A stretch of 64,000 nt of DNA. Source: Methanobacteriota archaeon (GTDB lineage: Archaea; Halobacteriota; Bog-38; Methanoflorentales; Methanoflorentaceae). Position 1 is the stretch's first letter. The number at the start of each line of letters is the position of its first letter. Of this stretch, positions 2,080 through 62,374 are shown one piece after another. The notes below the pieces were generated by a model, which saw only the letters and a program-made list of their open reading frames with translations, was not told the DNA's origin and did not search any database. The stretch spans positions 743,724-807,723 of the forward strand of contig OY969693.1 of the NCBI GenBank assembly GCA_963701995.1, given 5' to 3'. A program made the position numbers and the translations under genes.

Positions 2080-4041
2080 ATGTCTCAACCCAGGTTCACC
2101 CTAAGTTCATCGTTCAAGCCGACCGGAGATCAGCCTAAGGCAATCGCGGAGCTCGTCAACGGTATCAACGGAGGAGAGAAGCACCAGACGCTCCTCGGCG
2201 TCACGGGCTCAGGAAAGACGTTCACGGTCGCAAACTTGATCGCGCACGTGCAAAAGCCCACACTCGTCATTGCGCACAACAAGACGTTAGCCGCACAGCT
2301 CTATAAGGAGTTCAGGGAGTTCTTCCCGCAAAACGCGGTTGAGTACTTCGTGAGCTATTACGATTATTATCGCCCTGAGGCCTACATCCCGCACACCGAT
2401 GTCTACGTGGCAAAGGAATCGTCCATTAACGACGAGATTGATCGGCTCCGGCATTCGGCTACCAAGTCGCTGCTGACGCGGCGTGACACCATTGTCGTTG
2501 CAAGCGTTTCGTGCATATTCGGCATTGGCTCTCCTGACGACTACCAGGCGTCCGTGCTCTCGTTGCAGGTGAGCGAGACCATCAAACGGAGCGAGATTTT
2601 GCGCAAGCTCACCTCCATGCAGTATCTGCGTAACGACGTTGACTTCTTCCGCGGGAAGTTTCGCGTGCGAGGCGACACCGTTGAGGTGTTTCCCGCATAC
2701 GGAAACACCGCGTATCGCATCGCGCTCTGGGGCGATAAGATCGAGGGACTCTACGAGTTTAATCCTGTCAACGGAAGAAAGACGGCAGCGTTTGATTTTC
2801 TCGCCATCTACCCGGCGACGCACTTCATCACCAACCGCGCGAGGCACACCGAGGCACTGCATTCGATAAAGCGTGAGCTCACTGAACGTTTAGAGTACTT
2901 GCGCGGCCAGGACAAGTTGCTTGAGGCCCAACGCCTTGAGCAGCGCACAAAATATGACCTTGAGATGTTGCGTGAGGTTGGGTATTGCAGTGGAATCGAG
3001 AATTATAGCCGTCACCTCAGCGGGCGCGCTGAGGGGGAGGCGCCCACGACACTCATCGATTATTTCCCAGACGACTACCTCCTCGTCATTGATGAGTCAC
3101 ACGTGACGATCCCCCAGCTAGTCGGCATGTACGCGGGGGACCGCTCCCGGAAAGACAACCTCGTAGAGCACGGATTCCGCCTCCCTTCAGCATACGACAA
3201 TCGTCCACTCACCTTCGGCGAGTTTGAGAAGCGGGTCAACCAGGTTATCTACGTATCGGCCACGCCGGGACCGTACGAACTGGCGAAATGTGAACACCCA
3301 GTCGAGCAGATTATTCGTCCTACGGGCCTAGTCGACCCGGCCGTGGACGTCCGCCCCGCTGAGAAGCAAGTCGACGATCTGATCGCAGAAATTCGAAAGC
3401 GACCGAGCGAGCGCGTGCTGGTAACGACATTGACGAAGAGGATGGCTGAGGATCTTTCCGAGCACCTTCACGAGATCGGCATCAAGGTGCAGTACCTTCA
3501 CTCAGACATAAGCACGCTTGATCGGGTCGATATCCTGTACGATTTACGACGCGGCGCGTTCGACGTCCTTGTCGGTATCAACCTCCTCCGAGAGGGCATC
3601 GACCTTCCCGAGGTCACCCTCATGGCCATACTCGATGCGGACAAAGAGGGCTTTCTGCGCTCTGAACGGTCGCTCATTCAGACGATCGGCCGAGTCGCTC
3701 GAAACGTCAACGGGAGCGTTATCATGTACGCAGACGTTACCACCGACTCAATGAGGCGTGCGATAGGGGAGAACAATCGTCGGCGTGCGCTGCAGCTCGC
3801 GCACAACGAGCGTCACGGGATCACTCCGCAGACCATCGTCAAACCGATCGAGGAGCTTGTCGAGCGCCGTCGGCCGGGGCTGGTAGCCGACGAAGAACCC
3901 CCTATAAGCGTCGTTGCAGAGGAGCTCGAAGAGACGATCGCAGGATTGCAAGCGGAGATGCAGCGAGCGTCGCGCGGACTTGAGTTCGAGCGGGCAGCGC
4001 TCATTCGCGACATGATTCGATCACTCGAGGGAGGGGCGTAG
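2080..4041 (+). CDS. uvrB: excinuclease ABC subunit B (UvrB)
   Basis: 653-aa ORF with Walker A GSGKT, helicase motifs and a C-terminal coiled region ([17 protein letters not shown]); TAG stop 1 nt before the uvrA start. Confidence 0.95.
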
Positions 4042-10026: not shown

Positions 10027-11040
10027 GTGAATGCTCTACTCTTCATTGTTAGCTTGGCACTCATCTTCGTCGGCAGCAGTCTCTTTACGAATGGCGTGGA
10101 ATGGATCGGGCGCAAGTTCAATCTTTCTGAAGGCGTCGTCGGTTCGGTGTTGGCCGCCGTAGGAACGGCGTTGCCCGAAACGATCATTCCCCTGATTGCA
10201 ATTTTCTTTGTCGCTGGAACGACTGGACAGGATGTAGGCATTGGAGCGATCTTAGGTGCCCCGTTCATGCTGGGAACCCTCGCACTGTTTATTACAGGTA
10301 TGGCCGTACTCATTTTGAGACGCCGTCGGGCGATGGGAGCCAAAATCAACTTTGACAGCCAAATAACAGGGCGTGATTTGAGCGTCTTTTTCCTCGTGTA
10401 TTTAGGTGCTATAACCGTCGCTTTCATCGCACCTCAGCAAACGAAAGCGCTCATAGCGCCCCTCTTTGTGGCAATTTACATTGTGTACGTATGGCGCGTA
10501 TTCAAGACCGGCAAGGGGGCATCAGACGCACCGACGCAGCCACTCACGCTTGATTCGTGGGCAGCGCGGCTAAAAAGCGTCACTGCGCGCCAGACCCCAT
10601 CGCTACGGCTCGTGCTTGCACAAACCGCGTTATCGCTAGTCCTCATCATAGCGGGCGCGCAGCTCTTTGTGAATCAGATTGTCAGTCTCGCCGAGCAGCT
10701 CCACGCAAGTGCTATGCTGCTTGCGCTTGTTATCGCACCTATTGCGACAGAGTTGCCCGAGAAGCTCAATAGCGTCCTGTGGGTCAGCCAAGGCAAGGAT
10801 GCGCTCGCCTTGGGGAACATAACGGGGGCAATGGTGTTCCAGAGCTGCATTCCGGTGGCATTTGGCGTAGCGTTCACCTCGTGGGTGCTTGGGCCCATCG
10901 AGCTCATAAGCGCAATACTTGCTCTCATAGCGGGCATTTGGGTCTGCGTGCTTGCGGCCAGAGCGAAGCTGACGGCACCAGCGCTCATCTTCAATGGGGT
11001 CCTTTACCTGCTGTTCCTGTCGGTCGTGCTCCGGGGTTAG
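10027..11040 (+). CDS. sodium/calcium exchanger (CaCA family) membrane protein
   Basis: 337-aa polytopic ORF with duplicated alpha-repeat-like segments (GSVLAAVGTALPE and GNITGAMVFQ); GTG start. Confidence 0.75.
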   Translation: MNALLFIVSLALIFVGSSLFTNGVEWIGRKFNLSEGVVGSVLAAVGTALPETIIPLIAIFFVAGTTGQDVGIGAILGAPFMLGTLALFITGMAVLILRRRRAMGAKINFDSQITGRDLSVFFLVYLGAITVAFIAPQQTKALIAPLFVAIYIVYVWRVFKTGKGASDAPTQPLTLDSWAARLKSVTARQTPSLRLVLAQTALSLVLIIAGAQLFVNQIVSLAEQLHASAMLLALVIAPIATELPEKLNSVLWVSQGKDALALGNITGAMVFQSCIPVAFGVAFTSWVLGPIELISAILALIAGIWVCVLAARAKLTAPALIFNGVLYLLFLSVVLRG

Positions 11041-11228
11041 CAGTCTCAGATCAAAAGCTTCTTCGAAGTTTTTCCGACCTGCTAGTTAATCTTTGGTCAG
11101 GCGGGGCGCTTGGCTCTTGCTGCGTCACGAACGTATGCGGACGCTCTCGTAATTGAATTCCCCCAAATCGTTAGCTAAAAAAACGAAAAGACCAGCGCTA
11201 GACCAGTTTCCCACGCCTGCAATCCGAT

Positions 11229-11723
11229 TCAAACGATCTTGCTGACCTGGCTGCTAATGTACGGGTACGCGTCGAATGTCTGGCTGAAGGAAACGTTAAC
11301 ATCTATTACGAGGGGATGCGCGGTGACAACCCCGTTTAGATTCATCATCACGCTTTTTGTCAAGATGGCTTGCAATACAGTGCTGATTGCAGAGCCGAAG
11401 TAAATAGTTGACTGTATTGGGATGTCGACGCTTCCGCGCGCCGGGATTTGGATTCCGTCTGACGTGCCGGTGCTCAAGACCTGGTTGCCGGAGATCAATA
11501 GGAGGTTGTACGTAATGGATTTGATATTGACTCCTACGACATTCGGGTTATACAGTTTTATCACAAATGTTAACGTAAAGCCCGAGCGTGACACGTTGTC
11601 GATCGAGCTTACCGACACTCCCTGCACTTGAGGGGCCTGCAGCGTCAGCAGAAAAGCGGCCCCCACGATGGCGATAACGATTATGACTGCGGCTATTATG
11701 GCGACGATAGTTCTTGTCCGCAT
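11229..11723 (-). CDS. LEA14-like / WHy (LEA_2) domain protein with N-terminal membrane anchor
   Basis: 164-aa ORF: N-terminal transmembrane helix then a beta-rich domain with an NPN motif (KLYNPNVVGV). Confidence 0.55.
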   Translation of the reverse strand: MRTRTIVAIIAAVIIVIAIVGAAFLLTLQAPQVQGVSVSSIDNVSRSGFTLTFVIKLYNPNVVGVNIKSITYNLLLISGNQVLSTGTSDGIQIPARGSVDIPIQSTIYFGSAISTVLQAILTKSVMMNLNGVVTAHPLVIDVNVSFSQTFDAYPYISSQVSKIV

Positions 11724-15427: not shown

Positions 15428-15604
15428 GACGGCGCTGTTGTTCCTCTTAGCGAGAAATCCGACGGCTGCGTCGAGCTCGTCGCGATAGCGGCATTGAAGA
15501 GGGTTCGTAAGTCAGCTGGATCGTGCCACATCTTTGACTTTGAGGCTGCTTACAGCACGACAAAATCATAGCTTTTATAACGAATTAATCTGCTCACAGC
15601 AAGC

Positions 15605-17390: not shown

Positions 17391-17959
17391 ATGAAAGAAA
17401 AAATCAAGTTCGACAATGCGGCAAGCACCCTGTTTGCCCCGCAACTCGTCGGCCTGGTGACGACCGTTGATCGTGCCAATCGACCGAACGTGGCGACCTT
17501 CGCTTGGATAATGAGCACCTCGCACGATCCGGAGCTGGTAGCAGTGAGCGTTTCAAGACAACGCTACACCTATGAATGTCTAACAGATGAATTCGTCATT
17601 AATTTGCCGACGAAGGAGTTGCTGGAACAGGTGTGGGCCGTCGGGACCCGGTCAGGAAGGAATGTGGACAAGTTTCAGGCAACCGGGTTGACGCCCATAC
17701 CCGCAGAAGTGGTGAAGCCGCCCCGAATTGCCGAGCGCCCCCCCATATAGAATGCCGCATCATCGACACGCTAGACACGGGAGACCACACGATCTTTGTC
17801 GGCGAAGTCGTGGCAAAATCAGGCGACCCCGATGCAATGAAGGACGGGACCCTCAACGAGCGCATTGAGCCGTTGTTCCATCTTGGGGGCAAGAAATTCC
17901 TCTGCAGTCGCGAACGAATTGACGTCGACAGGCATCACAGGGGCAAAGGCAGCGTTTGA
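17391..17959 (+). pseudogene. flavin reductase-like (FMN-binding split-barrel) gene interrupted by a frameshift in a C7 run
   Basis: N-terminal half (17391-17750) and C-terminal half (about 17760-17959, DHTIFVGEVVA) are in different frames; the switch coincides with CCCCCCC at 17738-17744. Could be a sequencing error. Confidence 0.55.
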
Positions 17960-20408: not shown

Positions 20409-20481
20409 GGTCGCACCTTCACGAACGAAAAGGCGCTGAGCTACATATATATGTCGTCCCCAGCGCCGTGCGTAACTAACG

Positions 20482-21288
20482 TCAATGCACGTCCCTAAAC
20501 AGGAGGGAGCCGATGATGGTTATCAGAATGAAGAATCCAACAACGACGCCGAGGTCGAGCATGAGAGGGTACGCGTGCAATCCGGTGACCGCGTATCGTA
20601 ACGCGTCAACAGCATAGGTGAGGGGATTGATATCCGCCAGCGCTTTCATCCAGCCAGGCAGCGACGTGACAGGGAAAAGCGCGCCGCTCAGGAAAAAGAT
20701 CGGCAAGACGAGGAAGATCATCACCACCTGCAGACCCTCGATGCTCTCGAGCCGGGACGCGATGCTGACCCCCAACTCTCCAAACCCCATGCCGATGAAG
20801 AACATGGTCACCACTATGAGCGCGAGAGCAGCCGGAAGTCCCAGAGGGCCGGAAATCCTCACCCCAAGCACGGCTGCCACGACAAGGACGATGAGCCCCT
20901 GTGTTATTGCCGTAGTCGTTCCGCCGAGGGCCTTCCCGAGGAGTATTGAGGATCGTGACACCGGAGCAACGAGGATCTCCTTGAGAAAGCCAAACTCCTT
21001 GTCGAACATGAAGCTCATCCCTGAGGATAACGACATGTTTGTGAAGAGCGCCACCATGCCGAGGACCCCTGGGACTAGGAAGTCGAGGTAATTCGTCGTG
21101 CCTGTCGACCCGGCAAGTTGCAGCGATGAGCCGAGCGAGGAGCTGAATCCTATTCCGAATATGATGAGCCACGCCATCGGCTGGATGAGCGAGGTGAGAA
21201 GGCGCGACTTGGCTCTGACGAAGCGGATCATCTCCCTCCACCAGATCGAGTAAATGTCACCCAGAAAGTTCGTCGGTACGTTCGGCAT
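20482..21288 (-). CDS. ABC-2 type transporter permease
   Basis: 268 aa, about six transmembrane segments with ABC-2 family signature regions; no ATPase gene adjacent. Confidence 0.8.
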   Translation of the reverse strand: MPNVPTNFLGDIYSIWWREMIRFVRAKSRLLTSLIQPMAWLIIFGIGFSSSLGSSLQLAGSTGTTNYLDFLVPGVLGMVALFTNMSLSSGMSFMFDKEFGFLKEILVAPVSRSSILLGKALGGTTTAITQGLIVLVVAAVLGVRISGPLGLPAALALIVVTMFFIGMGFGELGVSIASRLESIEGLQVVMIFLVLPIFFLSGALFPVTSLPGWMKALADINPLTYAVDALRYAVTGLHAYPLMLDLGVVVGFFILITIIGSLLFRDVH

Positions 21289-21569
21289 GGCTAGGGCTTA
21301 GTGGTTTCGAAGTCCTCGCACCGCTCACGAGGTTTTTCGTTTCTGTCTTTGTCGATCAAAGGGCGTAGTCTACGAATCTTGCCGGCGAACAACTTTTAGC
21401 AACTTCTGCAGGCAAGTAAGTTAACGTCGTTTGGTTTACGTTTGACATGATCTCGTGTTACTGGACACAAAAGCTTTCGCACGTCGCAGCAGTACAGCTT
21501 TCCGATCCACATCTTTATGGCCGTTGGTATTCCTCTACCGCGCGGCTATTCAGGAGGTGACCCATCGCG

Positions 21570-21797
21570 ATGAAGAGATATACCGTCGCCGCTGTCGTTG
21601 TCATTACCGTGCTGCTCAGCTCAGTGCTGCCTACCACGACGGCAAGCGCCCAAGCAGTTGGTAAAGTGCCATATAAGCCAGCGCCGCTGAAATTATGGAA
21701 AAGCTTTGAACATACAGTCCTCGCAAAAATTAGCCAATCGGACGTGCCGGACAACACGATCGCATTGCTGAGCGCGCTCAGAGCGGTATTGCCCTGA
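21570..21797 (+). CDS. small putative secreted protein
   Basis: 75-aa ORF with an N-terminal signal-peptide-like segment (VVVITVLLSSVLPTTTASAQA). Confidence 0.25.
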   Translation: MKRYTVAAVVVITVLLSSVLPTTTASAQAVGKVPYKPAPLKLWKSFEHTVLAKISQSDVPDNTIALLSALRAVLP

Positions 21798-21878
21798 CCA
21801 GTCGTCAGCTGATAACGAGCATCGGCAAATAGCGCCGTGCCCTCTCACATCAAGGCAGAAAAAGAAAGTGCAAAGCCA

Positions 21879-22103
21879 CTATCGTCGTTGCTGCCTCGTG
21901 AGCTCGTCTTGGCTGCCTTCAAAGCGCGGGACCTCTCCTGGCTGAAAGTACACTAGCGGGCGGTCAGCCGTTCGGTCTGCCTTCCGCTTGTCTAAGTCGT
22001 CCACATAGGCCTTGAGCTTCTCACAGCACGTCTCTAGTTCTTTTACGCGTCTTTCCAGTGCGGCTATCCGTTCGTCGTTCGTGTTTACACCTACCAGAGT
22101 CAT
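21879..22103 (-). CDS. small coiled-coil protein
   Basis: 74-aa ORF with a heptad-like segment (RIAALERRVKELETCCEKLKAYVDDLDKRK). Confidence 0.3.
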   Translation of the reverse strand: MTLVGVNTNDERIAALERRVKELETCCEKLKAYVDDLDKRKADRTADRPLVYFQPGEVPRFEGSQDELTRQQRR

Positions 22104-22350
22104 AAAACGCTTGCCATCTTTGTCACCTGCTGATCACACTTCCATGACGTTGCCGACAACAAAAACGTTGTCTTTTCCGCTTGCTTGCGGTGGAGCTGCA
22201 GAATCTGATACACGAGCTGCGGGCGCTATAGGGAATTATTGAGGGGACTTCTATGTAGCCCTCTCCTTTTTTGGCACGTTCTCACTATCGAATTCTCGCT
22301 ATGACGAAAAACTAATAGATCAAGCTGCACAGACTCTCTTCAAGATCAAC

Positions 22351-23157
22351 ATGGCAAAGGAGAGATTCACGCTAGCCGAATCAATGACTTTCGTTGATAA
22401 GAAAGTCGTAGTCACTGGTGCTGCTTCCGGCATCGGAAAAGCGATCGCCCTGCGATTCGCTGAAGCTGGTGCATCTGTGTTACTTCTAGACGTTAACCCA
22501 GAAGGACTATCCGAGGCGGTTGGCTGTTTGGAAACCGCTCGTTGCCAGCATTCTACCTATGAAATTGACCTGGCCGACAAGAAGAAAATCGATCAGTTTT
22601 GGTCGACTCTCGACGGCGAACGCCCGCCCGATATTCTCGTAAACAACGCCGGCGTTTATCCGATGGAGGACTACTTGAACGTCGACGAGCACTTCCTAGA
22701 AAAAGTGTTTGACGTAAATATGAACGCCGCCTTCTGGATGTGTCAGAACTTCATTAGGTTGAGAAAGGAAAGAGGCGGCATCATCGTCAATGTCTCTTCC
22801 ATTGAGGCAGTTCTACCGTTCAAAAAGGACATGGTGCACTATGGCATGAGTAAGGCAGGCGTTATCGCACTCACGAGATCGCTCGCTCGAGACTACGGAA
22901 AGAGCGGCTTTCGGGTCAATGTCGTTCTTCCGGGCGCCATAAGAACGTCAGGGACGCGGTCATTAGTGAAAGATGCCATTCTCAACGTGAAGCTTGATCT
23001 CGTCAAGAGCGGATACGATTTTCAGCAAAGGCTTGCTCTTGGACGATGGGGTGAACCCGACGAGGTGGCGAAAGTCGTTCTCTTTCTTTGCAGTGACTTG
23101 GCAAGCTACGTTCAAGGCGCAATCGTCCCCGTTGACGGGGGCTTTCTTTCTTCCTAA
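22351..23157 (+). CDS. short-chain dehydrogenase/reductase (SDR)
   Basis: 268 aa; TGAASGIGKA cofactor motif, NNAG, and catalytic YGMSK. Confidence 0.9.
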   Translation: MAKERFTLAESMTFVDKKVVVTGAASGIGKAIALRFAEAGASVLLLDVNPEGLSEAVGCLETARCQHSTYEIDLADKKKIDQFWSTLDGERPPDILVNNAGVYPMEDYLNVDEHFLEKVFDVNMNAAFWMCQNFIRLRKERGGIIVNVSSIEAVLPFKKDMVHYGMSKAGVIALTRSLARDYGKSGFRVNVVLPGAIRTSGTRSLVKDAILNVKLDLVKSGYDFQQRLALGRWGEPDEVAKVVLFLCSDLASYVQGAIVPVDGGFLSS

Positions 23158-23610
23158 GAGCGCGCTCTAAAGCTGGAGAGCTCGACACAACCGATACGAA
23201 CATCAACGGCAAGCTAGTGCTAAAGGCATCAGATGTCCATACTGCGCGTGCCCCAACAGTACATAAGCGAGATACCGAACTTTTTTTTGAGACTATACAC
23301 GAAAGAAAACAGGCGTCCCTTATAGTGATGGGGTGTGCTGCGCGAAACGGGGCACGGTTTTACAACCGAGCAAAGAAGTTTTAGAACCTGTCGAAGAAAC
23401 TCGAGCTGATGCTCGTCTCTCAGCTTTGGAGTCTGCGATCAACCAGCGCGGTTAATCCTTTCTTCAAACGAAAGCGAAATCTTTCTCAAAAACAAAAACA
23501 GATGAGCCCGAGGTGATTCAAACGCCTTTCGCTGTGCAAAATGCGAAGGCATATAATGATGGAGTGAACTGCCCACGACAATAACCAGAGACACAGTTGG
23601 GTGCGTACTA

Positions 23611-24163
23611 ATGAGCATCGAGAACCGCTCTCTCCTCGCGGCACTCCTTTTTGTGGGTGTGGCGCAGTTCATTCTCGTGATAGCCATCACCGAAGCGCTG
23701 TATCCCGGGTATTCTGTGGCGACCAACGCACTCAGCGATTTGGGTGTCGGAGAAACGGCGCTTTTGTTCAACGCGTCGGTCGCGGTGTTAGGAGTATGCG
23801 TATTCATCGGGTCGCTGGTCGGCCGGCGTACCCTCCGCAGGGCCTTACAATCACTCTCGTGGCCACCGGCGCCTGTGCTGCAGGGGTGGCATATTCCCTG
23901 AAACCACCGGCGCGTCCCCCCTCGTCTTCTCGATCGTCACATTTGTCTTCGGCGCAGTTTCCGCGATCGTCTCATGTAGGGTACTGCGCCCGCCGCTCTC
24001 GTACGTCTCAGTGGGCCTGGGGATCATCGCGCTCTTTGCCCTTGTCCTAACCCTCACGCTTCACGATCTGGGAATAGGTCTAGGCGGGATGGAGCGCATG
24101 ACCGCCTACCCGATCTTCTTGTGGGCGCTCGGGTTCGGAGGATCCCTGATAGGTGCAAAGTGA
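23611..24163 (+). pseudogene. DUF998-like membrane protein, apparently frameshifted
   Basis: N-terminal 96 aa resemble the intact paralog at 31460-32170, then the hydrophobic continuation is in another frame from about 23880 to the TGA at 24161-24163. Confidence 0.4.
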
Positions 24164-27331: not shown

Positions 27332-27601
27332 TCAACTCTCACGTCTGTCCGCGTCGCCTTGCCTACCAACAATCGTGCCCAGCACAAGGCGCTTACTTAG
27401 AGGGCTAAGATACGTGTGACGTCTTTCTTTTTCTTGCCCTTCTCGCTCCACATCCCTGAAGCACGAAACGAGCGCGTCGAGTGCCTGCGTATCATCTAGA
27501 CTAGCCTCGGACTTCTCATAAGCTTTTGTCTTGACCTCTGAAAGCGCGCGGCTCAATAGCTCCGCGTCGCTGCCCGTTAAGATTAGCCCACTTTCTATCA
27601 T
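27332..27601 (-). CDS. small-protein paralog A of a three-copy family (89 aa)
   Basis: MIESGLILTGSDAELLSRALSEVKTK...; AGGAGG Shine-Dalgarno motif upstream; paralogs at 44108 and 60516 share the leader. Confidence 0.5.
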   Translation of the reverse strand: MIESGLILTGSDAELLSRALSEVKTKAYEKSEASLDDTQALDALVSCFRDVEREGQEKERRHTYLSPLSKRLVLGTIVGRQGDADRRES

Positions 27602-27713
27602 CTTTCCCCTCCTGGTCGGTGATTTTTACATGAACTACGTGACATAATGCATGATCGCTTTGTTCTGACGCCGATATTAGCGCCAAAATGGCCTTCATTC
27701 GCCGTGAAGAGAG

Positions 27714-27857
27714 TTAAGCAAGCTTCAAAGGGTAAATGGCCACTGGGCTAGTCTCTGATGTAGCGCGGACGGCGTACTCCTCACAATACGAAACGCCCTC
27801 CCTATCGCCACGCTGCTTACAATGGGCGTACTTTTCGCACCTTTGGCAGTTCATCAT
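27714..27857 (-). CDS. Cys-rich mini-ORF (47 aa) inside repeat family R3
   Basis: MMNCQRCEKYAHCKQRGDREGVSYCEEY...; similar mini-ORFs at 32220-32327 and 31232-31303; coding status uncertain. Confidence 0.2.
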   Translation of the reverse strand: MMNCQRCEKYAHCKQRGDREGVSYCEEYAVRATSETSPVAIYPLKLA

Positions 27858-28878: not shown

Positions 28879-29287
28879 TCATTTGATGTTCTGCGCGAGC
28901 TCATCCGCAGTCGTTGCCGTCTTCTTCATTAAATTTGACAACGTTTCAATGAACTTCGACCGTCTGTCTATCGTCATCTCCAAGCGTAGCGACGTCATTT
29001 CCGACATTTTGTTCATGCCATCTGACAGTACCTCTAAGCTCTGAAATACGCCCCCTGAGCTGCTGCTGTTCTTGCAGCACATTCTGCAATTCCGCATTTG
29101 CTTGCTGTGCGTCGTCCCGAACGGCGCTTATGTCTTCTATCAACTCAAATAATAGCTCGATTTCTTTTGATAGGTCTTTCCGCTTTGGCATTGCCTCACC
29201 TTCTGCGCGTTCCGCGTGTTCCGCGTGTGTTGAACTGCACATACACCGCCGGCCGCGCTTAAAAGTGATATCTTGATATCCGATCAT
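28879..29287 (-). CDS. coiled-coil protein, apparently split by a frameshift at a C5/G5 run
   Basis: Two overlapping minus-strand ORFs (28946-29287 and 28879-29097) join into one roughly 118-aa coiled-coil protein if a 1-nt indel at 29051-29055 is corrected. Confidence 0.3.
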
Positions 29288-31459: not shown

Positions 31460-32170
31460 GTGCATCTGTTTCAGAACGACGGCGATAAGAAACGAGAACA
31501 CCGTTTGGAGGTCTTTGTGCCAGCAGATGAAACGTCGCCACCTATACATCGAACACTGCGGCAGGTCGCGGGCGTGTGCGGCCTGTTGGGTGCAATCGTC
31601 GCTTTGAGCTTTGTAGGGCTTGCGATCTTTTATTCACCAGGCAATTTCAGTATCACGCAAAACTGGCTTAGCGATCTCGGCGGTATGGGCTATACGGCCT
31701 TTGAGAACGTCTCCCGGCCCTCAGTCACCTCGTCTACCACGGCGCTCCTCTTCGATTCGGGGCTCTCAGTGGCGGGCATTCTTGGCATCATCTTCTCGTT
31801 AGGACTGTTGAGCGATGCCCATTCGCCTGCGTACCGGCTAGGTGCGGTGTGCACGACGTTGGGAGCAGCTGCGATCGCCGGGGTCGGTCTCTTGCCCGAG
31901 CCGCTTGGCGTCATACATATCGTCGCAAGCTTCGCTTTTGGGATATTCTTCGCGGCAGCTATGTTCCTCATTGGCGGCTCGCTTGTCGATTCTTCCGCAA
32001 AGCCTTTAGGGGCGTTTTCAATCGCCCTCGGCATCGTCGCTCTGATAGGTACCTCTCAAATCAGTTACGAGCGGGGCGTCGCTGAGATTATCTTAGCCGC
32101 CGCGATAGCACTTTGGTTTGTGGTCTTTAGCATTCGAATGTTGAGGCGCGCGTCGCTCCGCGAGACATAG
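31460..32170 (+). CDS. DUF998-family membrane protein
   Basis: 236-aa polytopic protein, paralogous to the frameshifted copy at 23611-24163; GTG start. Confidence 0.6.
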   Translation: MHLFQNDGDKKREHRLEVFVPADETSPPIHRTLRQVAGVCGLLGAIVALSFVGLAIFYSPGNFSITQNWLSDLGGMGYTAFENVSRPSVTSSTTALLFDSGLSVAGILGIIFSLGLLSDAHSPAYRLGAVCTTLGAAAIAGVGLLPEPLGVIHIVASFAFGIFFAAAMFLIGGSLVDSSAKPLGAFSIALGIVALIGTSQISYERGVAEIILAAAIALWFVVFSIRMLRRASLRET

Positions 32171-42524: not shown

Positions 42525-43347
42525 TCAGCCCTTAATAAAGGCGAGCAAGTCGGCGTTCAACTGATCTTGGCAGATGGTGGGCAGACCGTGCGGTGCGCCC
42601 GGATAAACCTTCAATGTCGCCTGCGGCGCGATTTCGACAGTACGCAACGCTGCGGCTTGAATTGGCACTATTTGGTCATCGTCGCCGTGCACGACCAACG
42701 TAGGTATGGTCATCTTTTTCAAATCTTCGGTAAAATCGGTCTCGGAAAATTGCTTGATGCAATCGTACACGCCAGCCATCCCCGCCAACATTCCTTGCAG
42801 CCAGAAGGATTCGCGCACGCCCTCAGATACCTTGGCACCTTGTCGGTTATAGCCATAAAACGGCAGCGTAAAGTCCTTGAAAAACTGCGCGCGGTTGTCA
42901 AACACTTGTTTCCGAATGTCGTCAAACACAGCGAGCGGCGTGCCCTTGGGATTGGCTGCAGTTTTGAGCATCAGAGGCGGGACCGCGCTGACAAGCACTG
43001 CCTTGGCGACGCGGGATGTGCCGTGCCGTCCGATGTAGCGAGCGACTTCGCCGCCGCCCGTGGAGTGACCGATCATCACCATCTCGCGCAGGTTTAGCGC
43101 GTTGATAAGATCGGCAAGATCATCCGCATATTGGTCCATCGTATTGCCGTCCCAAGTCTGTTCCGAACGTCCATGACTGCGGCGGTCATGGGCAATCACG
43201 CGATAGCCCTTTTGCGTCAGAAACAGCATCTGGGCGTCCCAAGCGTCGGCACTGAGTGGCCAACCGTGACTAAACACTACGGGCTGTCCGTCGCCCCCAG
43301 TCCTTGTAATAGATCTGCGTGCCGTCTTTGGTTTTAATTGTGCGCAT
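42525..43347 (-). CDS. alpha/beta hydrolase (non-heme chloroperoxidase/arylesterase-like), frameshifted near the N-terminus
   Basis: Body (from 43277) matches the classical [19 protein letters not shown]...[17 protein letters not shown] family; the true N-terminus [18 protein letters not shown] starts at 43347 and is out of frame across a C5 run at 43294-43298. Confidence 0.85.
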
Positions 43348-43720
43348 CTTTTCTCTCCGTGAAATGACGAACAGTTATATTTTCTTTACACGATCTCTAA
43401 TTCGTTAATTCGACGTTTTGCTAGAGCCAAAACGTTGAAATCGCGTTCGCTGATTTTTGTCGTTGCTTGAACATACCAAGCCCAATTTTATTTACATCTT
43501 TTCCGCTGAAAGCGTGCAAGATGATCGCCGCCGACCGTGTCGGCATTGTAGTCACCGAGGAGCGTTCCGCCAGGTGAGACCAAATGATATGCAGGCCGCG
43601 ACGTTTTGGGCCGCCTGCAGCCCGGATCATCAGCACTGGCTGTCCCTGTCCGCGCACTTCGAAATATATTTGAGAATTGCGTTCTGCGTCGTCTTAAAGG
43701 CTTTAATACGCTAAATTTGT

Positions 43721-43967
43721 CGTCTCAAGGGAAACCGCCGTAACGTACTAAATTTGTAATAAAGCTTCAAATAGGTTTTTTGGTTATACTATTGTTGCCT
43801 CGGTTTAGCATTTCTAAGGCTGTGAAACCGCTCCGGTTCCATGGGTCGATGCTTGGTCCAAATAAGTTCGTGTGACTTTTTTAGAAGTACGCGGGGTGGT
43901 TAACAGCCTTAGTTGCCTCTTGTTCTTCTTTCAACACCTAAACTCGCAGCTTACGATCATCGTAAGA
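43721..43967. repeat. repeat family R2, copy 1 (about 245 bp) directly upstream of the small-protein leader
   Basis: About 95% identical to 60127-60370; no frame-conserved ORF between copies; contains a 10-bp inverted repeat pair (43814-43829 and 43898-43912). Confidence 0.65.
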
Positions 43968-44107
43968 GTGCGGCCATTTACCTATTGAAGCTTGCTAAGT
44001 GCGCATAGATAGGAATAACGGGCGGTTTGACGCTATTATTGACGTCGAAAAAAGCGATCACGCTTAATGTCATGTGTTCATGTAAAAACACCGACCAGGA
44101 GGGAAAG

Positions 44108-44483
44108 GTGATTGAGAAGGGATTAATCTTAACGGGCAGCGACGCGGAGTTATTGAGCCAGGCGCTTGCGGAAGTCAAAACAAAAGTCTCTGAAGAGTCC
44201 GATGCTAGTTTAGATGATACTCAAGCACTGGATGCACTCGTTTCGTGTATTAGAAATGGGGAAAAAGAAGGACAGCAGAAAGAAGGACAGCAAGCGTCGT
44301 AGCCTCTTACGCAAGCGCCTTATCTTGGGCACGCTTCTCGATAGGCAAGGCCGCGCGGATGGAAAGAAACGCATACACTTCATCCAGAGCCCGGTGTCCT
44401 TGATTCTCGCACATTTCTTCTATTTTGGCCGTGCGAGCTCACTAAGTCCTCCTTTTTTTCAGCTGCGGCAAACCGCTAGATAA
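44108..44483 (+). pseudogene. small-protein paralog B, frameshifted
   Basis: GTG start after AGGAGGG; the first 64 codons match paralogs A and C, then TAG at 44300-44302, while the conserved C-terminal segment (LRKRLILGTLLDRQGRADG) continues in another frame. Confidence 0.4.
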
Positions 44484-44703
44484 ATAGCCACATAGGTGGT
44501 ATGGAGCAATTCACTGCGGGAGCATAACGCATAGTGTCGAGGACGCCTAGAAACCAAAGCATCTCCGTTGGATCTACGGCACAGCCGAAATCATTTGCGC
44601 ACGTCCTCCAATTAGACAGATTTTTTGCCGAGAAAATCCTTTCCTAGTTCAACCAGAAAACAATTTGAAATCAAAGAATAAAGCCGGTTAGGGAGGGGTT
44701 AAT

Positions 44704-46125
44704 ATGGCCAATGAGTTCCGTAAGGAAATCGATAGTTTAGGTGAAGTCAACGTGCCTGCTGATAAGTTGTGGGGGGCGCAAACGCAACGTTCGTTGGAGC
44801 ATTTTAGTATCGCAGGCGATTTGATGCCGCGAGAGATGATTGAATCCTACGCCATATTAAAAAAAGCAGCAGCTATCGTGAATTTCCAGCTCGGCCAACT
44901 GACGGAGGACCGCCGGGATTTGATAGTCAAAGTGTGTGATGAAATTCTGGCCGGTCAACATCAGGACCAGTTTCCTCTTCACGTATGGATGACAGGAAGC
45001 GGGACTCATTTCAACATGAATGTAAATGAGGTTATTTCCAATCGCTGCTCCCAGCTAACCGGAAATCCCCTGGGCAGTAAAATACCGGTGCATCCCAATG
45101 ATCACGTTAATAGGTCACAGTCTTCAAATGACTCATTTCCGTCGGCCATGCATATTGCTGCAGCAAAAGCGATAAATCAGCGATTAATACCGTCCGTGAA
45201 ACATTTACGCGATTCGTTACACGCCAAGGCAGAAGAATGGAAGGACATTGTAAAGGTAGGCCGGACCCATATGCAGGATGCTACCCCCCTCACCTTTGGG
45301 CAGGAATTTTCTGGCTATGTAGGGTTGTTGGATGATAATCTAGACCGTTTAGATACCAATGTGCGAGAAGTATACCGTTTGGCGTTGGGAGGCACTGCAG
45401 TAGGGACAGGAATTAACGCTCCTCCGGGATTTGACGAAAAAGTGGGAGCTCAAATCGCAAAACTAACTGGCCTTCCGTTTGTAACTGCGCCAAACAAATT
45501 CGCCGTCCAAGGCTCTCATGATGCCCTGGTCATGCTGAGCGGCACCCTAAAAACCCTGGCAACGTCCCTATATAAAGTTGCTAACGATATTCGTATCTTA
45601 TGTTCTGGGCCGCGCTGTGGGTTAAATGAACTTAGTATTCCATCTAATGAGCCAGGGTCTTCTATTATGCCCGGGAAGGTCAACCCATCCCAGTGTGAAG
45701 CTTTGGCCATGGTGGCCGTGCAGGTAATGGCTAACGACATAGCAGTTGCTTTTGGTGGAGGAGGTGGTTATCTGGAAATGAACGTGTATAAGCCACTAAT
45801 AATCCACAACATTATGCATTCCATCCAAATTATGGCAGATGGGTGCCACAACTTCCGGTTGTTCCTCGTGGAAGGAGCTGAACTTAATAGAAAGCAGATT
45901 AACACCTTCTTGGAACGATCGCTCATGTTGGTAACTGCCCTTAGTCCTATTATTGGCTATGATAAAGCATCAAAAGTCGCCCACTATGCGCTCGATAATG
46001 ATTTAACGCTTAAAAAAGCTGCTATAGAGCTTGGCTGTATGCCAGAAGACGAATTTGATCGTGTGGTCGATCCGGCGAAGATGGTGTATCCCCGTGTTTC
46101 TCAGCGTGACGGTGACGGCAATTAG
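44704..46125 (+). CDS. fumC: class II fumarate hydratase (aspartase/fumarase superfamily)
   Basis: 473 aa; signature [17 protein letters not shown] and conserved [14 protein letters not shown] region. Confidence 0.9.
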
Positions 46126-46202
46126 ACGCGGGAAACTGGTCTAAAATGACTATTCAACAGCAGTGAGTTCCTTTTCCGTATAACGTGTAAGGGTGGGTAG
46201 TA

Positions 46203-47906
46203 GTGATTCGGCACCACGATGTTCTCATTATCGGAGGAGGTTTGACTGGACTTCGGGCTGCCCTACGCATCTCAGATGCCGGCCTGAACGGGGCGGTAGT
46301 CTCCAAGGTGCATCCGTTGCGGTCTCATTCTGTGGCAGCCCAGGGCGGAATGAATGCCGCATTTGGGAACGTTAAGGGCGAAGATGGCACGACGGACAGC
46401 TGGAAAAGTCACGCGCGCGATACCGTTGCAGGATCTGATTATCTAGCCGACCAGGACGCCGTTGAACGCATGTGTCGTGAGGCTCCTACCGCCGTTATCG
46501 AACTCGAACACATGGGGATGGTGTGGTCAAGAATTGACAACGGAAAAATTGCACAGCGCCCTTTCGGCGGGGCAGGATTTCCAAGAACCTGTTATGCAGC
46601 AGATCGCACCGGTCACAACGCGCTCCACACCCTGTATGAACATGCGTCGCAGCGGGAAATCCCGGTTTATGAGGAGTTTATCGTCACGTCGCTCATAACT
46701 AATGACGGACGGTGCGTTGGATGCACGGCCCTGGAACTCATGACAGGCCAGGTCCACGGCCTCCTCGCAAAGGCTGTCCTCATGGCCACTGGCGGTTTTG
46801 GCCGGATATTCAACAGGTCGACAAATGCGTTAATTAGCACCGGTGACGGACAGGCCCTCGCGCTGCGTGCGGGCGCACTGCTCAAGGACATGGAGTTTGT
46901 CCAGTTCCATCCGACCACCCTTTACCGGACGAACATTTTGATCACGGAAGGGGCCCGCGGTGAGGGGGGCATCCTCCTCAACCAGAATGGCGAGCGCTTT
47001 ATGGCACGGTACGCTCCGAAGTCGATCGACCTCGCCCCGCGTGATGTGGTGGCACGGGCTATCGAACGGGAAATCGCCGAGGGAAGAGGATATGAGGGAG
47101 GTTATGTGCACCTTGACCTGCGCCATTTGGGCGCGGATCGGATCAGGGAACGGTTGCCAGGGATACGGCAGATCGCGATGGATTTTGCTGGTGTCGATCC
47201 TATCCAGGATCCGGTGCCGATCCAACCAGGTCAGCACTACTCTATGGGCGGTATTGATGTCGATATCAACGGCGCCAGCACACTTCCGGGCCTCTACGCT
47301 GCAGGTGAGTGTGCCTGTGTCAGTGTCCACGGAGCGAACCGGCTTGGTGGAAATTCTCTCGTGGAAACCGTAGTATTCGGACGGCTGGTCGCCGAGAAAA
47401 TCATCGAGGATGTTGCCCAAATCACCCCTCCCGATAATGGGCCGGCAAAAGCCGCCGTGACGCGTGTAAACGCTAGAATCGGCGGCATACTTCGACGTGA
47501 GGGAGGAGAACGCGTCTTTATGATTAGGGATATGATGACCGACACGATGTCCACCAAATTCGGAATATTCCGTGAAGAACAGAAGATGCAGGAAGGCCTC
47601 GACGAGATCAAAAAAATGCAGGAACGTGTTTCCCACGCTTCGCCCCAGAACAAAGAGCGCCAATTAAACCAGGCACTTGTACGGTTCTTGGAGCTGGAGG
47701 GAATGCTCCTCCTGGCTGAGGCAGTTGCCCGTGGGGCGCTTGCCCGGGAGGAGAGCAGGGGTTCCCACACGAGGAAGGATTACCCCGAACGCGACGATCA
47801 TAACTTCCTCAAACACACGCTGGTGGGATTGCGAGACGAAACAATGTATGTTTCGTATAAGCCCGTTGCGTTAGGCGTGTTTGAGCCACAGGAGCGCGTT
47901 TACTGA
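46203..47906 (+). CDS. sdhA: succinate dehydrogenase / fumarate reductase flavoprotein subunit
   Basis: 567 aa; FAD-binding DVLIIGGGLTGLRAAL, RSHSVAAQGG FAD-attachment region, and HGANRLGGNSL active-site motif; GTG start. Confidence 0.9.
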   Translation: MIRHHDVLIIGGGLTGLRAALRISDAGLNGAVVSKVHPLRSHSVAAQGGMNAAFGNVKGEDGTTDSWKSHARDTVAGSDYLADQDAVERMCREAPTAVIELEHMGMVWSRIDNGKIAQRPFGGAGFPRTCYAADRTGHNALHTLYEHASQREIPVYEEFIVTSLITNDGRCVGCTALELMTGQVHGLLAKAVLMATGGFGRIFNRSTNALISTGDGQALALRAGALLKDMEFVQFHPTTLYRTNILITEGARGEGGILLNQNGERFMARYAPKSIDLAPRDVVARAIEREIAEGRGYEGGYVHLDLRHLGADRIRERLPGIRQIAMDFAGVDPIQDPVPIQPGQHYSMGGIDVDINGASTLPGLYAAGECACVSVHGANRLGGNSLVETVVFGRLVAEKIIEDVAQITPPDNGPAKAAVTRVNARIGGILRREGGERVFMIRDMMTDTMSTKFGIFREEQKMQEGLDEIKKMQERVSHASPQNKERQLNQALVRFLELEGMLLLAEAVARGALAREESRGSHTRKDYPERDDHNFLKHTLVGLRDETMYVSYKPVALGVFEPQERVY

Positions 47907-60370: not shown

Positions 60371-60515
60371 GTGCGGCCATTTACCTTTTGAAGCTTGCTT
60401 AACGCTCTTCGCGGTGAATAACGGCCATTTTGACGCTAATATCAGCGTCAGAACAAAGCGATCATGCATTATGTAAGGTGGCGCACACAAAAAGTACCGA
60501 TAAAGGAGGAAAAAA

Positions 60516-61441: not shown

Positions 61442-62248
61442 TCACACTAAATCTTTAAGCGCATCCAACAAAGCCTTTCGCTCGACTGAGCCCGTCGGAG
61501 ATATGTAGAAATCAACGCCACGACCTCTTCCACGCCCTTTTCGTTCAACTTCAACATAACCGTACAACTCCAATTCAGCAGTGAGTTCGGAAAGGGTCTT
61601 GTGCGAGACCTGTTCACGTCCGTTAAGCCTCATAATATTGTTAAATTCCCTATAAACCTCAGTTGGCGACTGCTTTTCCTCTTTACTGTATACGGTTTCT
61701 AGCAACACCTTCTGATGTGGTGAGAGACGTACCACTTCTCTGCGTAACAACGACACTTCTGCAAGTCGTTCCGCACGACGCACATCCTCTTCTGCAACAG
61801 TCGTTCGCCCTTCTTCTTCACAAAGGTCAGCAGCAGTTGATAGCAAATCAAGCGCATATCGGGCATCGCCGTTTCTCTGTGCCGCTAATGCAGCGCATAA
61901 CGGAATCACTTCATCGCTCAGCGCATTCGGATAAAACGCCTGTTCAACGCGATACTCCAGAATATCCCTTAACTGAGGCGCGTCATAAGCCGGAAAAGTA
62001 ACATCTACATATACATACGATGACTGGTCACGGGCGTCGGTGATTAGTGTAGGGAAGTCATATTTGTTCGTGATCCCGATAAGACAGATGTTAGAATCTC
62101 GCGTGAACTTGTAGATGGGGCTATATTCGTCTTTTCTGTTCTTAATGAGCATTTTGTCTATCTCATCGAGAATAATGATCGCAATATTCCCTTTGACCTT
62201 CTGTTCGATTTTTGTCCAGTACTCGTTAGTTTTAACCGGTTGCTTGTT
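61442..62248 (-). pseudogene. orc1: Orc1/Cdc6 replication-initiator gene remnant lacking the Walker A region
   Basis: Open frame includes Walker B IAIIILDEID, FPAYDAPQLRDILEYRVEQAF, CAALAAQRNGDARYALDLL and the C-terminal winged helix; upstream it stops at TGA (62249-62251), the preceding PYRV-like segment is in another frame, and no GxxGxGKT motif is found. Confidence 0.7.
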
Positions 62249-62374
62249 TCAATTCCAAAGTTGCTAGCAATAGTCTTGAGAATTTGATAAATTGACGTTC
62301 ATAATCCTAGCTATTGGATTCATACTTCATCTCCTTGCAGTAGAAACAAATACGTGAGACGGGGTCATTGAAGG

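What the first reader, a model, noticed from the sequence alone, without database searches (positions are those of the whole stretch)
17391..17959. Recurrent frameshifts at homopolymer runs: sequencing error, decay or phase variation
At least four genes change frame exactly at a homopolymer: flavin reductase-like gene at C7 (17738-17744), alpha/beta hydrolase at C5 (43294-43298), coiled-coil ORF at C5/G5 (29051-29055), and the Orc1 remnant near an A4/T4 run (about 62228-62240). The DUF998 copy (23611-24163) and small-protein paralog B also shift frame. The pattern is typical of homopolymer indel errors, so pseudogene calls here are tentative.
Basis: seen in the sequence. Interest (0 to 1): 0.45.

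Follow-up and report, generated by a model that had tools for sequence, protein, structure and literature searches.

The report
Broken genes: mostly real decay
The frame-shifted genes in this uncultured peat archaeon's genome are real features of the sequence, but they are a mixture of probably genuine decaying genes, at least one likely assembly mistake and one undecided case, so this is ordinary genome decay plus quality control, not a switching mechanism.

Summary
The window comes from a 2.1-Mb contig of an uncultured 'Bog-38'-type Halobacteriota archaeon. The frame breaks exist, but only 2 of 7 indel events lie in runs of 5 or more bases.

- **Flavin reductase (17391-17959):** one base short at C7 (17738-17744), where relatives have CCCGACCC. 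A separate k-mer assembly of run ERR10755944 reproduces it. Orthologues in about 60 other contigs carry at least 17 different lesions, while flanking genes stay intact. Probably a real pseudogene.
- **DUF998 copy:** two 1-bp deletions, both reproduced in that k-mer assembly. Probably real.
- **Small-protein paralog B:** a 2-bp, non-homopolymer deletion, also reproduced. Probably real.
- **Orc1 remnant:** 5'-truncated, and truncated further in relatives. Real.
- **Coiled-coil ORF:** it does not break at the C5/G5 run. The lesion is at 29024-29026, and the same run's assembly gives an intact ORF there. Probably a consensus error or a minor allele.
- **Alpha/beta hydrolase:** a G4-to-G5 insertion at 43294-43298 in an otherwise conserved gene. 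Undecided.

Nothing supports phase variation or programmed frameshifting. The one mildly interesting result is the recurrent, gene-specific inactivation of the flavoredoxin-like gene across the clade.

The parts
17391..17750 (+). N-terminal fragment (119 aa) of a flavin reductase-like / flavoredoxin-like gene (PF01613)
   Evidence: ORF list; Pfam hit; this exact product is on record from the 2,115,296-bp source contig and from a Logan contig of run ERR10755944.
17633..17959 (+). C-terminal fragment (108-aa ORF, frame -1 relative to the first) of the same gene
   Evidence: two PF01613 stretches. The joined product aligns to 1eje and 2d5m over residues 11-172.
17738..17744 (.). C7 tract where the flavin reductase frame breaks. 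It is seven bases where relatives have eight (CCCGACCC), so the run is derived (one base lost plus a substitution)
   Evidence: Alignments. The Logan contig L001 is 100% identical here.
42525..43350 (-). Alpha/beta hydrolase (non-heme chloroperoxidase-like, 273 aa if repaired) interrupted 55 nt after its ATG
   Evidence: dN/dS against L026 is 0.13.
43294..43298 (.). C5 (+) / G5 (-) tract: one base more than the G4 of three orthologous contigs. This is the only lesion in the gene. Real or error is undecided
   Evidence: Alignment A4. No cross-check contig covers the site.
28879..29287 (-). Coiled-coil small protein gene (120 aa when intact), read as two overlapping ORFs in the window
   Evidence: The intact 120-aa product P0159 sits on contig L029 of run ERR10755944.
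29024..29026 (.). True site of the coiled-coil frameshift: one substitution (29026) plus one extra base (29024) relative to L029. Not a homopolymer. Probable consensus error or minor allele in the assembly
   Evidence: L029 versus the window: 911 of 912 aligned columns are otherwise identical. Homologues read ...LDGMNEMSEMTSLRLQM... as L029 does.
29051..29055 (.). It is not the lesion
   Evidence: The run is identical in L029, which encodes the intact protein.
23611..24163 (+). DUF998 paralogue broken into three frames by two 1-bp deletions (G3 at 23840-23842, G2 at 23888-23889). An intact paralogue lies at 31460-32170
   Evidence: Logan contig L025 is 100% identical over 22629-24132. dN is 0.077-0.083, about five times that of the neighbouring DUF1622 gene, and dN/dS is 0.28-0.36.
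44108..44480 (+). Small-protein paralog B with a 2-bp (TA) deletion between 44296 and 44297 relative to paralogs A (27335-27625, -) and C (60504-60797, +)
   Evidence: Alignment A3. Logan contig L035 is 100% identical over 43898-46492.
61442..62290 (-). Orc1/Cdc6 remnant. It matches residues about 91-357 of A. pernix ORC1, so the N-terminal ~90 residues, where AAA+ proteins carry their Walker A motif, are missing. One frame change lies at or next to A4 (62230-62233)
   Evidence: Related contigs keep only the last 149 aa.

Best explanation
The window is part of an accessory, gene-poor stretch of the chromosome of an uncultured 'Bog-38'-type Halobacteriota archaeon. The source is probably a long-read metagenome-assembled genome, but that is inferred. 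Its frame-disrupted genes are a heterogeneous set.

1. **Probably genuine pseudogenes**, made by ordinary small indels (slipped-strand events in short runs, a 2-bp deletion) and by truncation:
   - the flavoredoxin-like flavin reductase
   - the DUF998 copy
   - small-protein paralog B
   - the Orc1 remnant
2. **One probable assembly artefact.** The coiled-coil gene lesion at 29024-29026 is most likely a consensus error, or the consensus picked a minor allele, because reads of run ERR10755944 also assemble into an intact gene.
3. **One undecided case.** The alpha/beta hydrolase has a single G4-to-G5 insertion in an otherwise well-conserved gene, which fits either a very recent mutation or a miscall.

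For the flagged locus, the gene is one that this whole clade keeps inactivating. Many independent frameshifts and nonsense mutations occur, several of them polymorphic within a species, while the two neighbouring genes stay intact.

**Shown:** the lesions, their reproducibility in a second assembly, and the parallel lesions in relatives.
**Inferred:** that the lesions abolish function, that the source assembly is Nanopore-based, and that loss is neutral or advantageous.
For: **Provenance**
- Source contig is 2,115,296 bp. Relatives are named Halobacteriota, Methanomicrobia or bog_38 MAGs, and the closest are about 91-92% identical in DNA.

**Reproducibility in Logan contigs of ERR10755944**
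- They are 100% identical to the window across the flavin reductase (L001, 1313 bp), the DUF998 copy (L025, 1504 bp) and paralog B (L035, 2595 bp), lesions included.
- They differ at exactly one place, 29024-29026, where they restore the coiled-coil ORF.

**Parallel decay of the flavin reductase**
- In 52 JGI metagenome loci plus GTDB representatives and ENA contigs, about 27 copies are intact and 26-32 disrupted, with at least 17 distinct lesion classes.
- Five clusters at 98.5% or higher identity hold both intact and broken alleles.
- Identical lesions recur in independent datasets, for example the 2-bp insertion at nt 199 in JGI L068 and in L015, whose isolate name (MFD03726) and Flye-style contig name suggest a long-read MAG.
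- Control genes: the downstream 103-aa gene is broken in 0 of 40 loci and the upstream 116-aa gene in 3 of 49.

**Other genes**
- DUF998 copy: two lesions 48 nt apart and raised dN.
- Orc1: homology starts at about residue 91 of 2v1u, and relatives are truncated further.
- Other non-frameshift remnants in the window, namely partial HSP20 and PAS domains with in-frame stops, show that decay here is general.

**Homopolymers**
- No systematic compression of long runs relative to relatives, and only 1 of 33 runs of 7 or more bases coincides with a frame break.
Against: - The sequencing platform of ERR10755944 could not be established. If it is the same Nanopore read set used for the assembly, its agreement at the C7 run is weaker evidence, because run-length miscalls can be systematic. 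It remains good evidence for the non-homopolymer lesions.
- The flavin reductase and the alpha/beta hydrolase each carry a single lesion and show strong purifying selection against relatives (dN/dS 0.11 and 0.13). If real, the lesions are very recent. An error gives the same picture.
- The window has only two runs of 8 bases where the rate in relatives predicts about 7-8, a weak hint of under-calling.
- Nanopore-only MAGs of this clade demonstrably carry ORF-breaking indels in short runs (L019 versus L020).
- Metagenome contigs are not independent samples, so counts of broken versus intact copies overstate the number of events. The lesion-class count is the safer figure.
Confidence: 0.7

Rival explanations
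1. All or nearly all of the frameshifts are artefacts of a long-read (Nanopore) consensus, that is, homopolymer and short-run indel miscalls. On this view the genes are intact in the organism.
For: - Close relatives from the Microflora Danica catalogue are Nanopore-only, Flye plus one round of Medaka, and its authors note error-related low coding density in archaeal MAGs rich in long homopolymers.
- L019 and L020, the same population assembled from two samples, differ by 4 indel events in 21 kb, each coinciding with shortened or split ORF calls in L019.
- The coiled-coil lesion is contradicted by a second assembly of run ERR10755944.
- The flavin reductase and the alpha/beta hydrolase each have one lesion, in a run, and low dN/dS.
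- Runs of 8 bases are scarce in the window.
Against: - Four of the seven events are reproduced exactly in the k-mer assembly of ERR10755944.
- Five of seven events are in runs of 4 bases or fewer or in no run at all. Paralog B is a 2-bp deletion.
- DUF998 has two hits within 48 nt plus raised dN.
- The Orc1 remnant lacks about 90 N-terminal residues and is truncated in related JGI contigs too.
- Long genes (UvrA, UvrB, UvrC, DsbH-like, SdhA, fumarase, MFS) are all intact, and runs of 7 bases inside them keep frame.
- The flavin reductase is broken in many relatives while its neighbours are not.
Confidence: 0.15
2. The tracts are contingency loci. Reversible slippage at the runs switches the genes on and off (phase variation).
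For: - Two lesions sit in mononucleotide runs, and one of them (the alpha/beta hydrolase) is near the 5' end of the gene.
- One site is heterogeneous between two assemblies of the same run.
Against: - The tracts are short (C7, G5). The C7 tract is not conserved, since relatives have CCCGACCC. The alpha/beta hydrolase orthologues have G4.
- The heterogeneous site is not a repeat tract.
- Lesions in the flavin reductase of relatives are scattered over the whole gene and include nonsense mutations, 2- and 5-bp indels and internal deletions, none reversible by slippage.
- The genes are cytoplasmic enzymes, not the surface or restriction functions that are typical of phase-variable genes (my own knowledge).
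Confidence: 0.03
3. The flavin reductase is expressed by programmed -1 ribosomal frameshifting or transcriptional slippage on the C-rich heptamer (C CCC CCC).
For: The shift needed is -1 and the tract formally fits an X XXY YYZ pattern.
Against: - No relative has the tract. Intact relatives read straight through CCCGACCC.
- Broken relatives are broken elsewhere and in other ways.
- So the recoding signal is not conserved, and conservation is the defining property of programmed frameshifts.
Confidence: 0.02

Closest known systems
Indel errors in Nanopore-only metagenome assemblies (Sereika et al. 2022, PMC9262707; Sereika et al. 2025, PMC12313526)
   Same: - Single-base indels break ORFs.
- Relatives of this genome come from exactly such a catalogue.
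- One lesion (29024-29026) behaves like a consensus error.
- L019 versus L020 shows the error mode directly.
   Different: - Most lesions here are not in long homopolymers.
- Four are reproduced in a second assembly.
- One gene is truncated.
- The flagged gene is also broken in relatives from JGI and megahit assemblies.
Ordinary prokaryotic pseudogenes formed by slipped-strand indels, nonsense mutations and truncation
   Same: - Disrupted ORFs with intact homologues elsewhere.
- Several lesions per gene (DUF998, Orc1).
- Raised dN in DUF998.
- Independent lesions in relatives.
- Located in an accessory, poorly syntenic region.
   Different: Nothing essential differs. The unusual aspect is the frequency of independent inactivation of one gene, with at least 17 lesion classes, while its flanking genes are spared.
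Phase-variable contingency genes of Neisseria, Haemophilus and Campylobacter (simple-sequence tracts; my own knowledge)
   Same: A frameshift lies inside a mononucleotide run in a coding region.
   Different: The tracts are short and not conserved. There is no run-length polymorphism at the tracts, and lesions in relatives are not tract-based.
Recurrent loss-of-function of the nitroreductase/flavin reductase genes rdxA and frxA in Helicobacter pylori (my own knowledge; a lead, not tested)
   Same: A small flavin-dependent reductase accumulates many different frameshift and nonsense alleles, polymorphic within species.
   Different: No selective agent is known here. Selection for loss was not tested, and the protein family differs (PF01613 split-barrel flavoredoxin-like, closest to 1eje and 2d5m).

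Membership tests
Homopolymer indel sequencing/assembly error | The indel lies inside a long mononucleotide run (5-6 bases or more) | tested here: inconclusive
   Met for 2 of 7 events (C7 at 17738-17744, G5 at 43294-43298). Not met for the other five, which are G3, G2, A4, a TA deletion, and a complex change at 29024-29026.
Homopolymer indel sequencing/assembly error | The lesion is not reproduced by an independent assembly or read set of the same organism | tested here: inconclusive
   - Not reproduced at 29024-29026, which is error-like.
- Reproduced for the flavin reductase, both DUF998 sites and paralog B.
- Not covered for the alpha/beta hydrolase or Orc1.
- The platform of ERR10755944 is unknown.
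Homopolymer indel sequencing/assembly error | Long runs are systematically mis-sized relative to relatives, and errors are spread over all genes including conserved ones | tested here: not met
   Homologous runs of 7 or more bases mostly agree with relatives and show no one-directional bias. Only 1 of 33 runs of 7 or more bases coincides with a frame break, and all long conserved genes are intact. Weak counter-hint: few runs of 8 bases.
Pseudogene (genuine gene decay) | The ORF is disrupted relative to intact full-length homologues | tested here: met
   - Flavin reductase against L010, L011, L012 and 1eje.
- Alpha/beta hydrolase against 273-aa homologues.
- DUF998 against the 184-aa L002 and L015 proteins.
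- Orc1 against 2v1u.
Pseudogene (genuine gene decay) | Further signs of relaxed constraint: several lesions, truncation, raised dN/dS | tested here: inconclusive
   Met for DUF998 (two lesions, dN about five times its neighbour's) and for Orc1 (truncation). Not met for the flavin reductase (dN/dS 0.11) or the alpha/beta hydrolase (0.13), each with a single lesion.
Pseudogene (genuine gene decay) | The same gene is independently inactivated or lost in related lineages | tested here: met
   Flavin reductase: at least 17 lesion classes, with five clusters at 98.5% or higher identity that contain both intact and broken alleles, while flanking genes are spared. Orc1: shorter remnants in relatives. 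Not seen for the alpha/beta hydrolase, whose relatives are mostly 273 aa.
Phase-variable contingency locus | A hypermutable tract conserved among relatives, with run-length polymorphism among close strains | tested here: not met
   The C7 tract is absent from all relatives, which have CCCGACCC. The G-run is G4 in orthologues. The only site that differs between the two assemblies of the same population is not a repeat.
Programmed ribosomal frameshift / recoding site | The slippery site and the two-frame architecture are conserved across diverged homologues | tested here: not met
   Intact homologues are single-frame. Broken ones break at other positions.

The most novel reading that the evidence does not exclude
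The flavoredoxin-like flavin reductase at 17391-17959 may be a target of recurrent, possibly adaptive, loss of function in peat-dwelling Bog-38-type (Methanoflorentaceae-like) archaea. Many independent and often very recent knock-out alleles segregate within species while neighbouring genes are untouched. That is the pattern expected if the active enzyme is costly under some conditions, for example by activating a toxic substrate, as with rdxA/frxA in H. pylori. The evidence shows gene-specific recurrent inactivation. It does not separate relaxed selection from selection for loss.
Probability: 0.2. Interest if true: 0.5.

Novelty: already known. Interest (0 to 1): 0.27.

Why it matters
Mainly for annotation. 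In this genome a frameshift cannot be written off as a homopolymer error, nor accepted as a pseudogene, without a cross-check. Of the listed cases, four look real, one looks like an assembly error at a non-homopolymer site, and one is open.

It also shows that long-read MAGs of this clade need read-level or short-read validation before pseudogene counts are interpreted.

The side result is a modest lead for population genomics of uncultured peat archaea, which are thought to be methanogens: one small flavoprotein gene is knocked out again and again across the clade, with intact and broken alleles coexisting within species.

Tried and rejected
- **Exact-sequence look-ups of repaired proteins.** I searched for the flavin reductase with C8 or C5, the alpha/beta hydrolase with G4 and the repaired DUF998. 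None is in the collection, which is uninformative because Logan contigs are short.
- **Lineage-specific DNA pattern.** A scan of JGI metagenomes around the C7 site gave 0 hits, so this species is not in that collection.
- **Finding the source record.** A look-up through UvrB found nothing on record. The supplements of PMC12313526 are not held, and 'ERR10755944' occurs in no paper. The platform and sample of that run stay unknown. The Microflora Danica atlas paper puts its Illumina metagenomes under an NCBI BioProject. Together with the ERR accession prefix, that makes a Nanopore run of ENA project PRJEB58634 plausible, but this is inference.
- **Homopolymer compression.** Comparing homologous runs between the window and relatives showed no systematic bias.
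- **Methylation-motif (CTAG) miscalling** as the cause of the 29024-29026 discrepancy. CTAG density in the window (15 per 10 kb) matches relatives (12-19), so there is no genome-wide signal.
- **Mutational hotspot at the C7 site.** L082 has a 1-bp deletion 3 nt away, but it is an allele of the L038 lineage and independent. With about 18 lesion classes, such a coincidence is expected by chance.
- **Programmed frameshifting and phase variation.** Rejected; see the rival explanations.
- **Rfam scan of the window.** No hits.

Full report
**What the window is.**
The window has about 52% G+C, no tRNA genes and no Rfam hits. It encodes UvrB, UvrA and UvrC, a Na/Ca exchanger, an ADH, PadR, an MFS transporter, fumarase, SdhA/SdhB-like proteins and many small or unassignable ORFs. 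Exact protein look-ups place it on a 2,115,296-bp contig held by NCBI and ENA. Relatives are MAGs labelled Halobacteriota, Methanomicrobia or 'bog_38' archaeon. They come from SPRUCE peat, Stordalen and the Danish Microflora Danica (MFD) project. The closest fetched relatives are about 91-92% identical in DNA. Synteny holds for roughly 7-27 kb and 35-40 kb and breaks elsewhere, so much of the window is accessory. The MFD long-read MAGs are Nanopore-only, assembled with Flye and polished with one round of Medaka. Their authors report error-related low coding density in some archaeal MAGs rich in long homopolymers (PMC12313526). That the window's own contig is of this type is an inference. I could not retrieve its record.

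**The flagged locus: what is there.**
The ORFs 17391-17750 and 17633-17959 are two pieces of one PF01613 flavin reductase-like gene. The break is at C7 (17738-17744). Adding one base gives a 189-aa protein that aligns without gaps through the junction to the FMN-binding protein MTH152 (1eje) and to flavoredoxin (2d5m). All relatives have the eight bases CCCGACCC at this spot. The window has CCCCCCC, flanked by two further lineage-specific substitutions. The run is therefore derived, not an old tract that slipped.

**The flagged locus: is the lesion real?**
Three lines of evidence bear on this.

- A Logan contig of run ERR10755944 (L001, 1313 bp) is 100% identical to the window here, C7 included. 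Logan contigs are built independently of the deposited assembly. This is shown by L029, which differs from the window (see the coiled-coil paragraph).
- The gene is broken in many relatives by other lesions. Among nine species representatives, five are intact and four broken. Eight further contigs carry three more lesion types. A scan of JGI metagenomes gave 52 loci. Aligning everything to an intact reference gave about 27 intact and 26-32 disrupted copies, with at least 17 distinct lesion classes: 1-, 2- and 5-bp indels, nonsense codons, an internal deletion and multi-hit wrecks. Identical lesions recur in independent datasets. Examples are the 2-bp insertion at nt 199 in JGI L068 and in L015 (by its name an MFD long-read MAG), the 1-bp deletion at nt 192 in JGI L069 and the Stordalen MAG L016, and the 1-bp deletion at nt 245 in JGI and ENA contigs. 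Five clusters at 98.5% or higher identity hold both intact and broken alleles, for example L041 (stop at codon 82) against L036, and L082 (1-bp deletion) against the otherwise identical L038.
- The decay is gene-specific. The downstream 103-aa gene is intact in 40 of 40 loci. The upstream 116-aa gene is disrupted in 3 of 49, once N-terminal divergence is discounted.

Against this, dN/dS of the repaired window gene versus L010 is 0.11, the same as among intact copies. If real, the lesion is recent, and an error would look the same. I put about 75% on a real lesion.

**DUF998 copy (23611-24163).**
Relative to the intact 184-aa genes of L002 and L015, the window lacks one G in a G-run at 23840-23842 and one G at 23888-23889. 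This produces three frames. Logan contig L025 (1504 bp) is 100% identical. dN against the relatives is 0.077-0.083, compared with 0.015 for the adjacent DUF1622 gene, and dN/dS is 0.28-0.36. An intact DUF998 paralogue lies at 31460-32170. Two lesions 48 nt apart, raised dN and redundancy point to a real pseudogene.

**Small-protein paralog B.**
Three copies of a roughly 90-aa ORF, each with about 200 nt of conserved upstream sequence, lie at 27335-27625 (-), about 44108-44480 (+) and 60504-60797 (+). Copy B lacks the dinucleotide TA between 44296 and 44297, which is not a homopolymer context. Logan contig L035 (2595 bp) is 100% identical over 43898-46492.

**Orc1 remnant.**
The 236-aa ORF 61442-62152, plus upstream sequence in another frame, matches residues about 91-357 of A. 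pernix ORC1 (2v1u). The N-terminal ~90 residues are therefore absent; by my own knowledge that part carries the Walker A motif of AAA+ proteins. Pfam finds only the lid and winged-helix domains. The frame change lies between ...NRLK and TNEYW..., at or next to A4 (62230-62233). Its exact position cannot be pinned because the segment is missing from relatives. Those keep only a 149-aa remnant, on 50 contigs. This is an old, real pseudogene whatever the run length.

**Coiled-coil ORF.**
Its contig, L029 (911 bp, also ERR10755944), differs from the window only at 29024-29026. On the minus strand the window reads ACTGTCAGATGG and L029 reads ACTCTAGATGG, one substitution plus one extra base in the window. 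L029's reading (...GTLDGMNKMSEM...) matches the conserved ...LDGMNEMSEMTSLRLQM... of homologues. So the G5 run is not the lesion. Reads of the same population support an intact gene, and the deposited consensus is either wrong here or represents a minor allele. A genome-wide CTAG-motif artefact was tested and not found.

**Alpha/beta hydrolase.**
The gene on the minus strand (42525-43350) reads ATG...GACTGGGGGCGAC. Three orthologous contigs read GACTGGGGCAAC. Removing one G gives a 273-aa protein that is 94-95% identical to full-length non-heme chloroperoxidase-like homologues. dN/dS is 0.13. Most relatives are full length. No cross-check contig covers the site. I leave it at about even odds.

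**Is the window error-prone at runs?**
- The window has 33 runs of 7 or more bases, and only one coincides with a frame break.
- Long runs aligned to relatives show no one-directional length bias.
- Runs of exactly 8 bases are rarer than in relatives: 2 observed against about 7-8 expected. This is a weak signal.
- As a measure of what such assemblies can contain, L019 and L020 are 99.96% identical. They are Flye-style contigs (contig_NNN names) from two ENA assemblies. They differ by 3 SNPs and 4 indel events, in runs of 1-6 bases or an AG repeat, and each coincides with shortened or split ORF calls in L019.
- Across 6.3 kb of Logan cross-check, the window shows one discrepant locus. That sample was partly chosen by exact protein match, so it is biased toward agreement.

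**Synthesis.**
Seven indel events were examined.

| Event | Window position | Context | Reproduced in the Logan assembly? | Reading |
|---|---|---|---|---|
| Flavin reductase | 17738-17744 | C7 run | yes | probably real |
| DUF998, first | 23840-23842 | G3 run | yes | probably real |
| DUF998, second | 23888-23889 | G2 run | yes | probably real |
| Paralog B | 44296/44297 | TA deletion, no run | yes | probably real |
| Coiled-coil ORF | 29024-29026 | no run | no, contradicted | probable error or minor allele |
| Alpha/beta hydrolase | 43294-43298 | G5 run | not covered | undecided |
| Orc1 remnant | about 62230-62233 | A4 run | not covered | gene is truncated anyway |

Two of the seven are in runs of 5 or more bases. 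That is more than the 2.4% of the window such runs cover (my calculation gives P of about 0.01), but the bias is shared by real slippage and by sequencing error. The window also holds non-frameshift remnants: a partial HSP20 and a partial PAS domain followed by an in-frame stop.

The best reading is a decaying accessory region with mostly genuine pseudogenes, at least one consensus error and one undecided site. Phase variation and programmed frameshifting fail their defining tests, because the tracts are not conserved and lesions in relatives are scattered and irreversible.

**Novelty and interest.**
Pseudogenes, slippage indels and long-read consensus errors are all well known, so the finding as posed is ordinary. 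The one point a specialist might follow up is the gene-specific, recurrent and often within-species inactivation of the flavoredoxin-like gene across this uncultured archaeal clade. This could reflect relaxed selection or selection for loss. I could not separate the two.

Noticed in passing
window 17391-17959 and loci L004-L018, L036-L087: The flavoredoxin-like gene is inactivated by at least 17 different lesions across related populations. Intact and broken alleles occur together within five clusters at 98.5% or higher identity. The genes on either side are almost never broken.
   Followed up: yes
L019 versus L020 (whole loci, 21.5 kb): Two Flye-style contigs of the same population from different samples are 99.96% identical. 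They differ by 3 SNPs and 4 indel events (AG repeat, T1/T2, T5/T6, G1/G2), each coinciding with shortened or split ORF calls in L019. This gives a direct view of the error or variation level in such assemblies.
   Followed up: partly
window 27354-27771 (-), 43898-44424 (+), 60301-60772 (+); also L030 18070-18553: A repeated unit of about 470 nt, about 79% identical between copies, made of a roughly 90-aa ORF (MIESGLILTGSDAELLS...) plus about 200 nt of conserved upstream sequence. There are three copies in the window, no Pfam match, and the function is unknown.
   Followed up: partly
window 28879-29287 (-); proteins P0159-P0175: The small coiled-coil protein ends in ...MSEMTSLRLEMTIDRRSKFIETLSNLMKK...QNIK. 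Two homologues (P0163, P0170) carry a precomputed hit to PF09392, which I recall as the type III secretion needle family. That is unexpected in an archaeal genome.
   Followed up: no
window, whole: CTAG is strongly under-represented: 97 observed against about 248 expected from base composition. CTAG sites are conserved between the window and relatives only about half the time, compared with about 75-80% for GATC.
   Followed up: partly
window 20459-23538 versus L002 12994-16800 and L015: Relatives carry a four-gene cluster here (two AsnC/NirD-L-like regulators and two radical-SAM/SPASM proteins), which looks like the alternative haem biosynthesis genes ahbAB, ahbC and ahbD. The window instead has an ABC-2 permease without an adjacent ATPase gene, small ORFs and a short-chain dehydrogenase. 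An MFS_3 transporter gene present in L002 (429 aa) is deleted in the window at about 15488-15492 and split in L004.
   Followed up: partly
window 58554-58769 (-) and 57368-57676 (+): Two more gene remnants. One is the C-terminal half of an HSP20 domain, preceded by an in-frame stop and too short a spacer. The other is a lone partial PAS domain with no start codon that ends in a stop where the domain should continue.
   Followed up: partly
L030, L031, L032 (about 2866-3294 and 10668-11240): Near-identical JGI peat contigs differ in the ORF calls for a thioredoxin gene (68, 142 or 88 aa) and a Big_3_5 gene (190, none or 114 aa). This suggests that ORF-disrupting polymorphism is common in accessory genes of these populations.
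   Followed up: no
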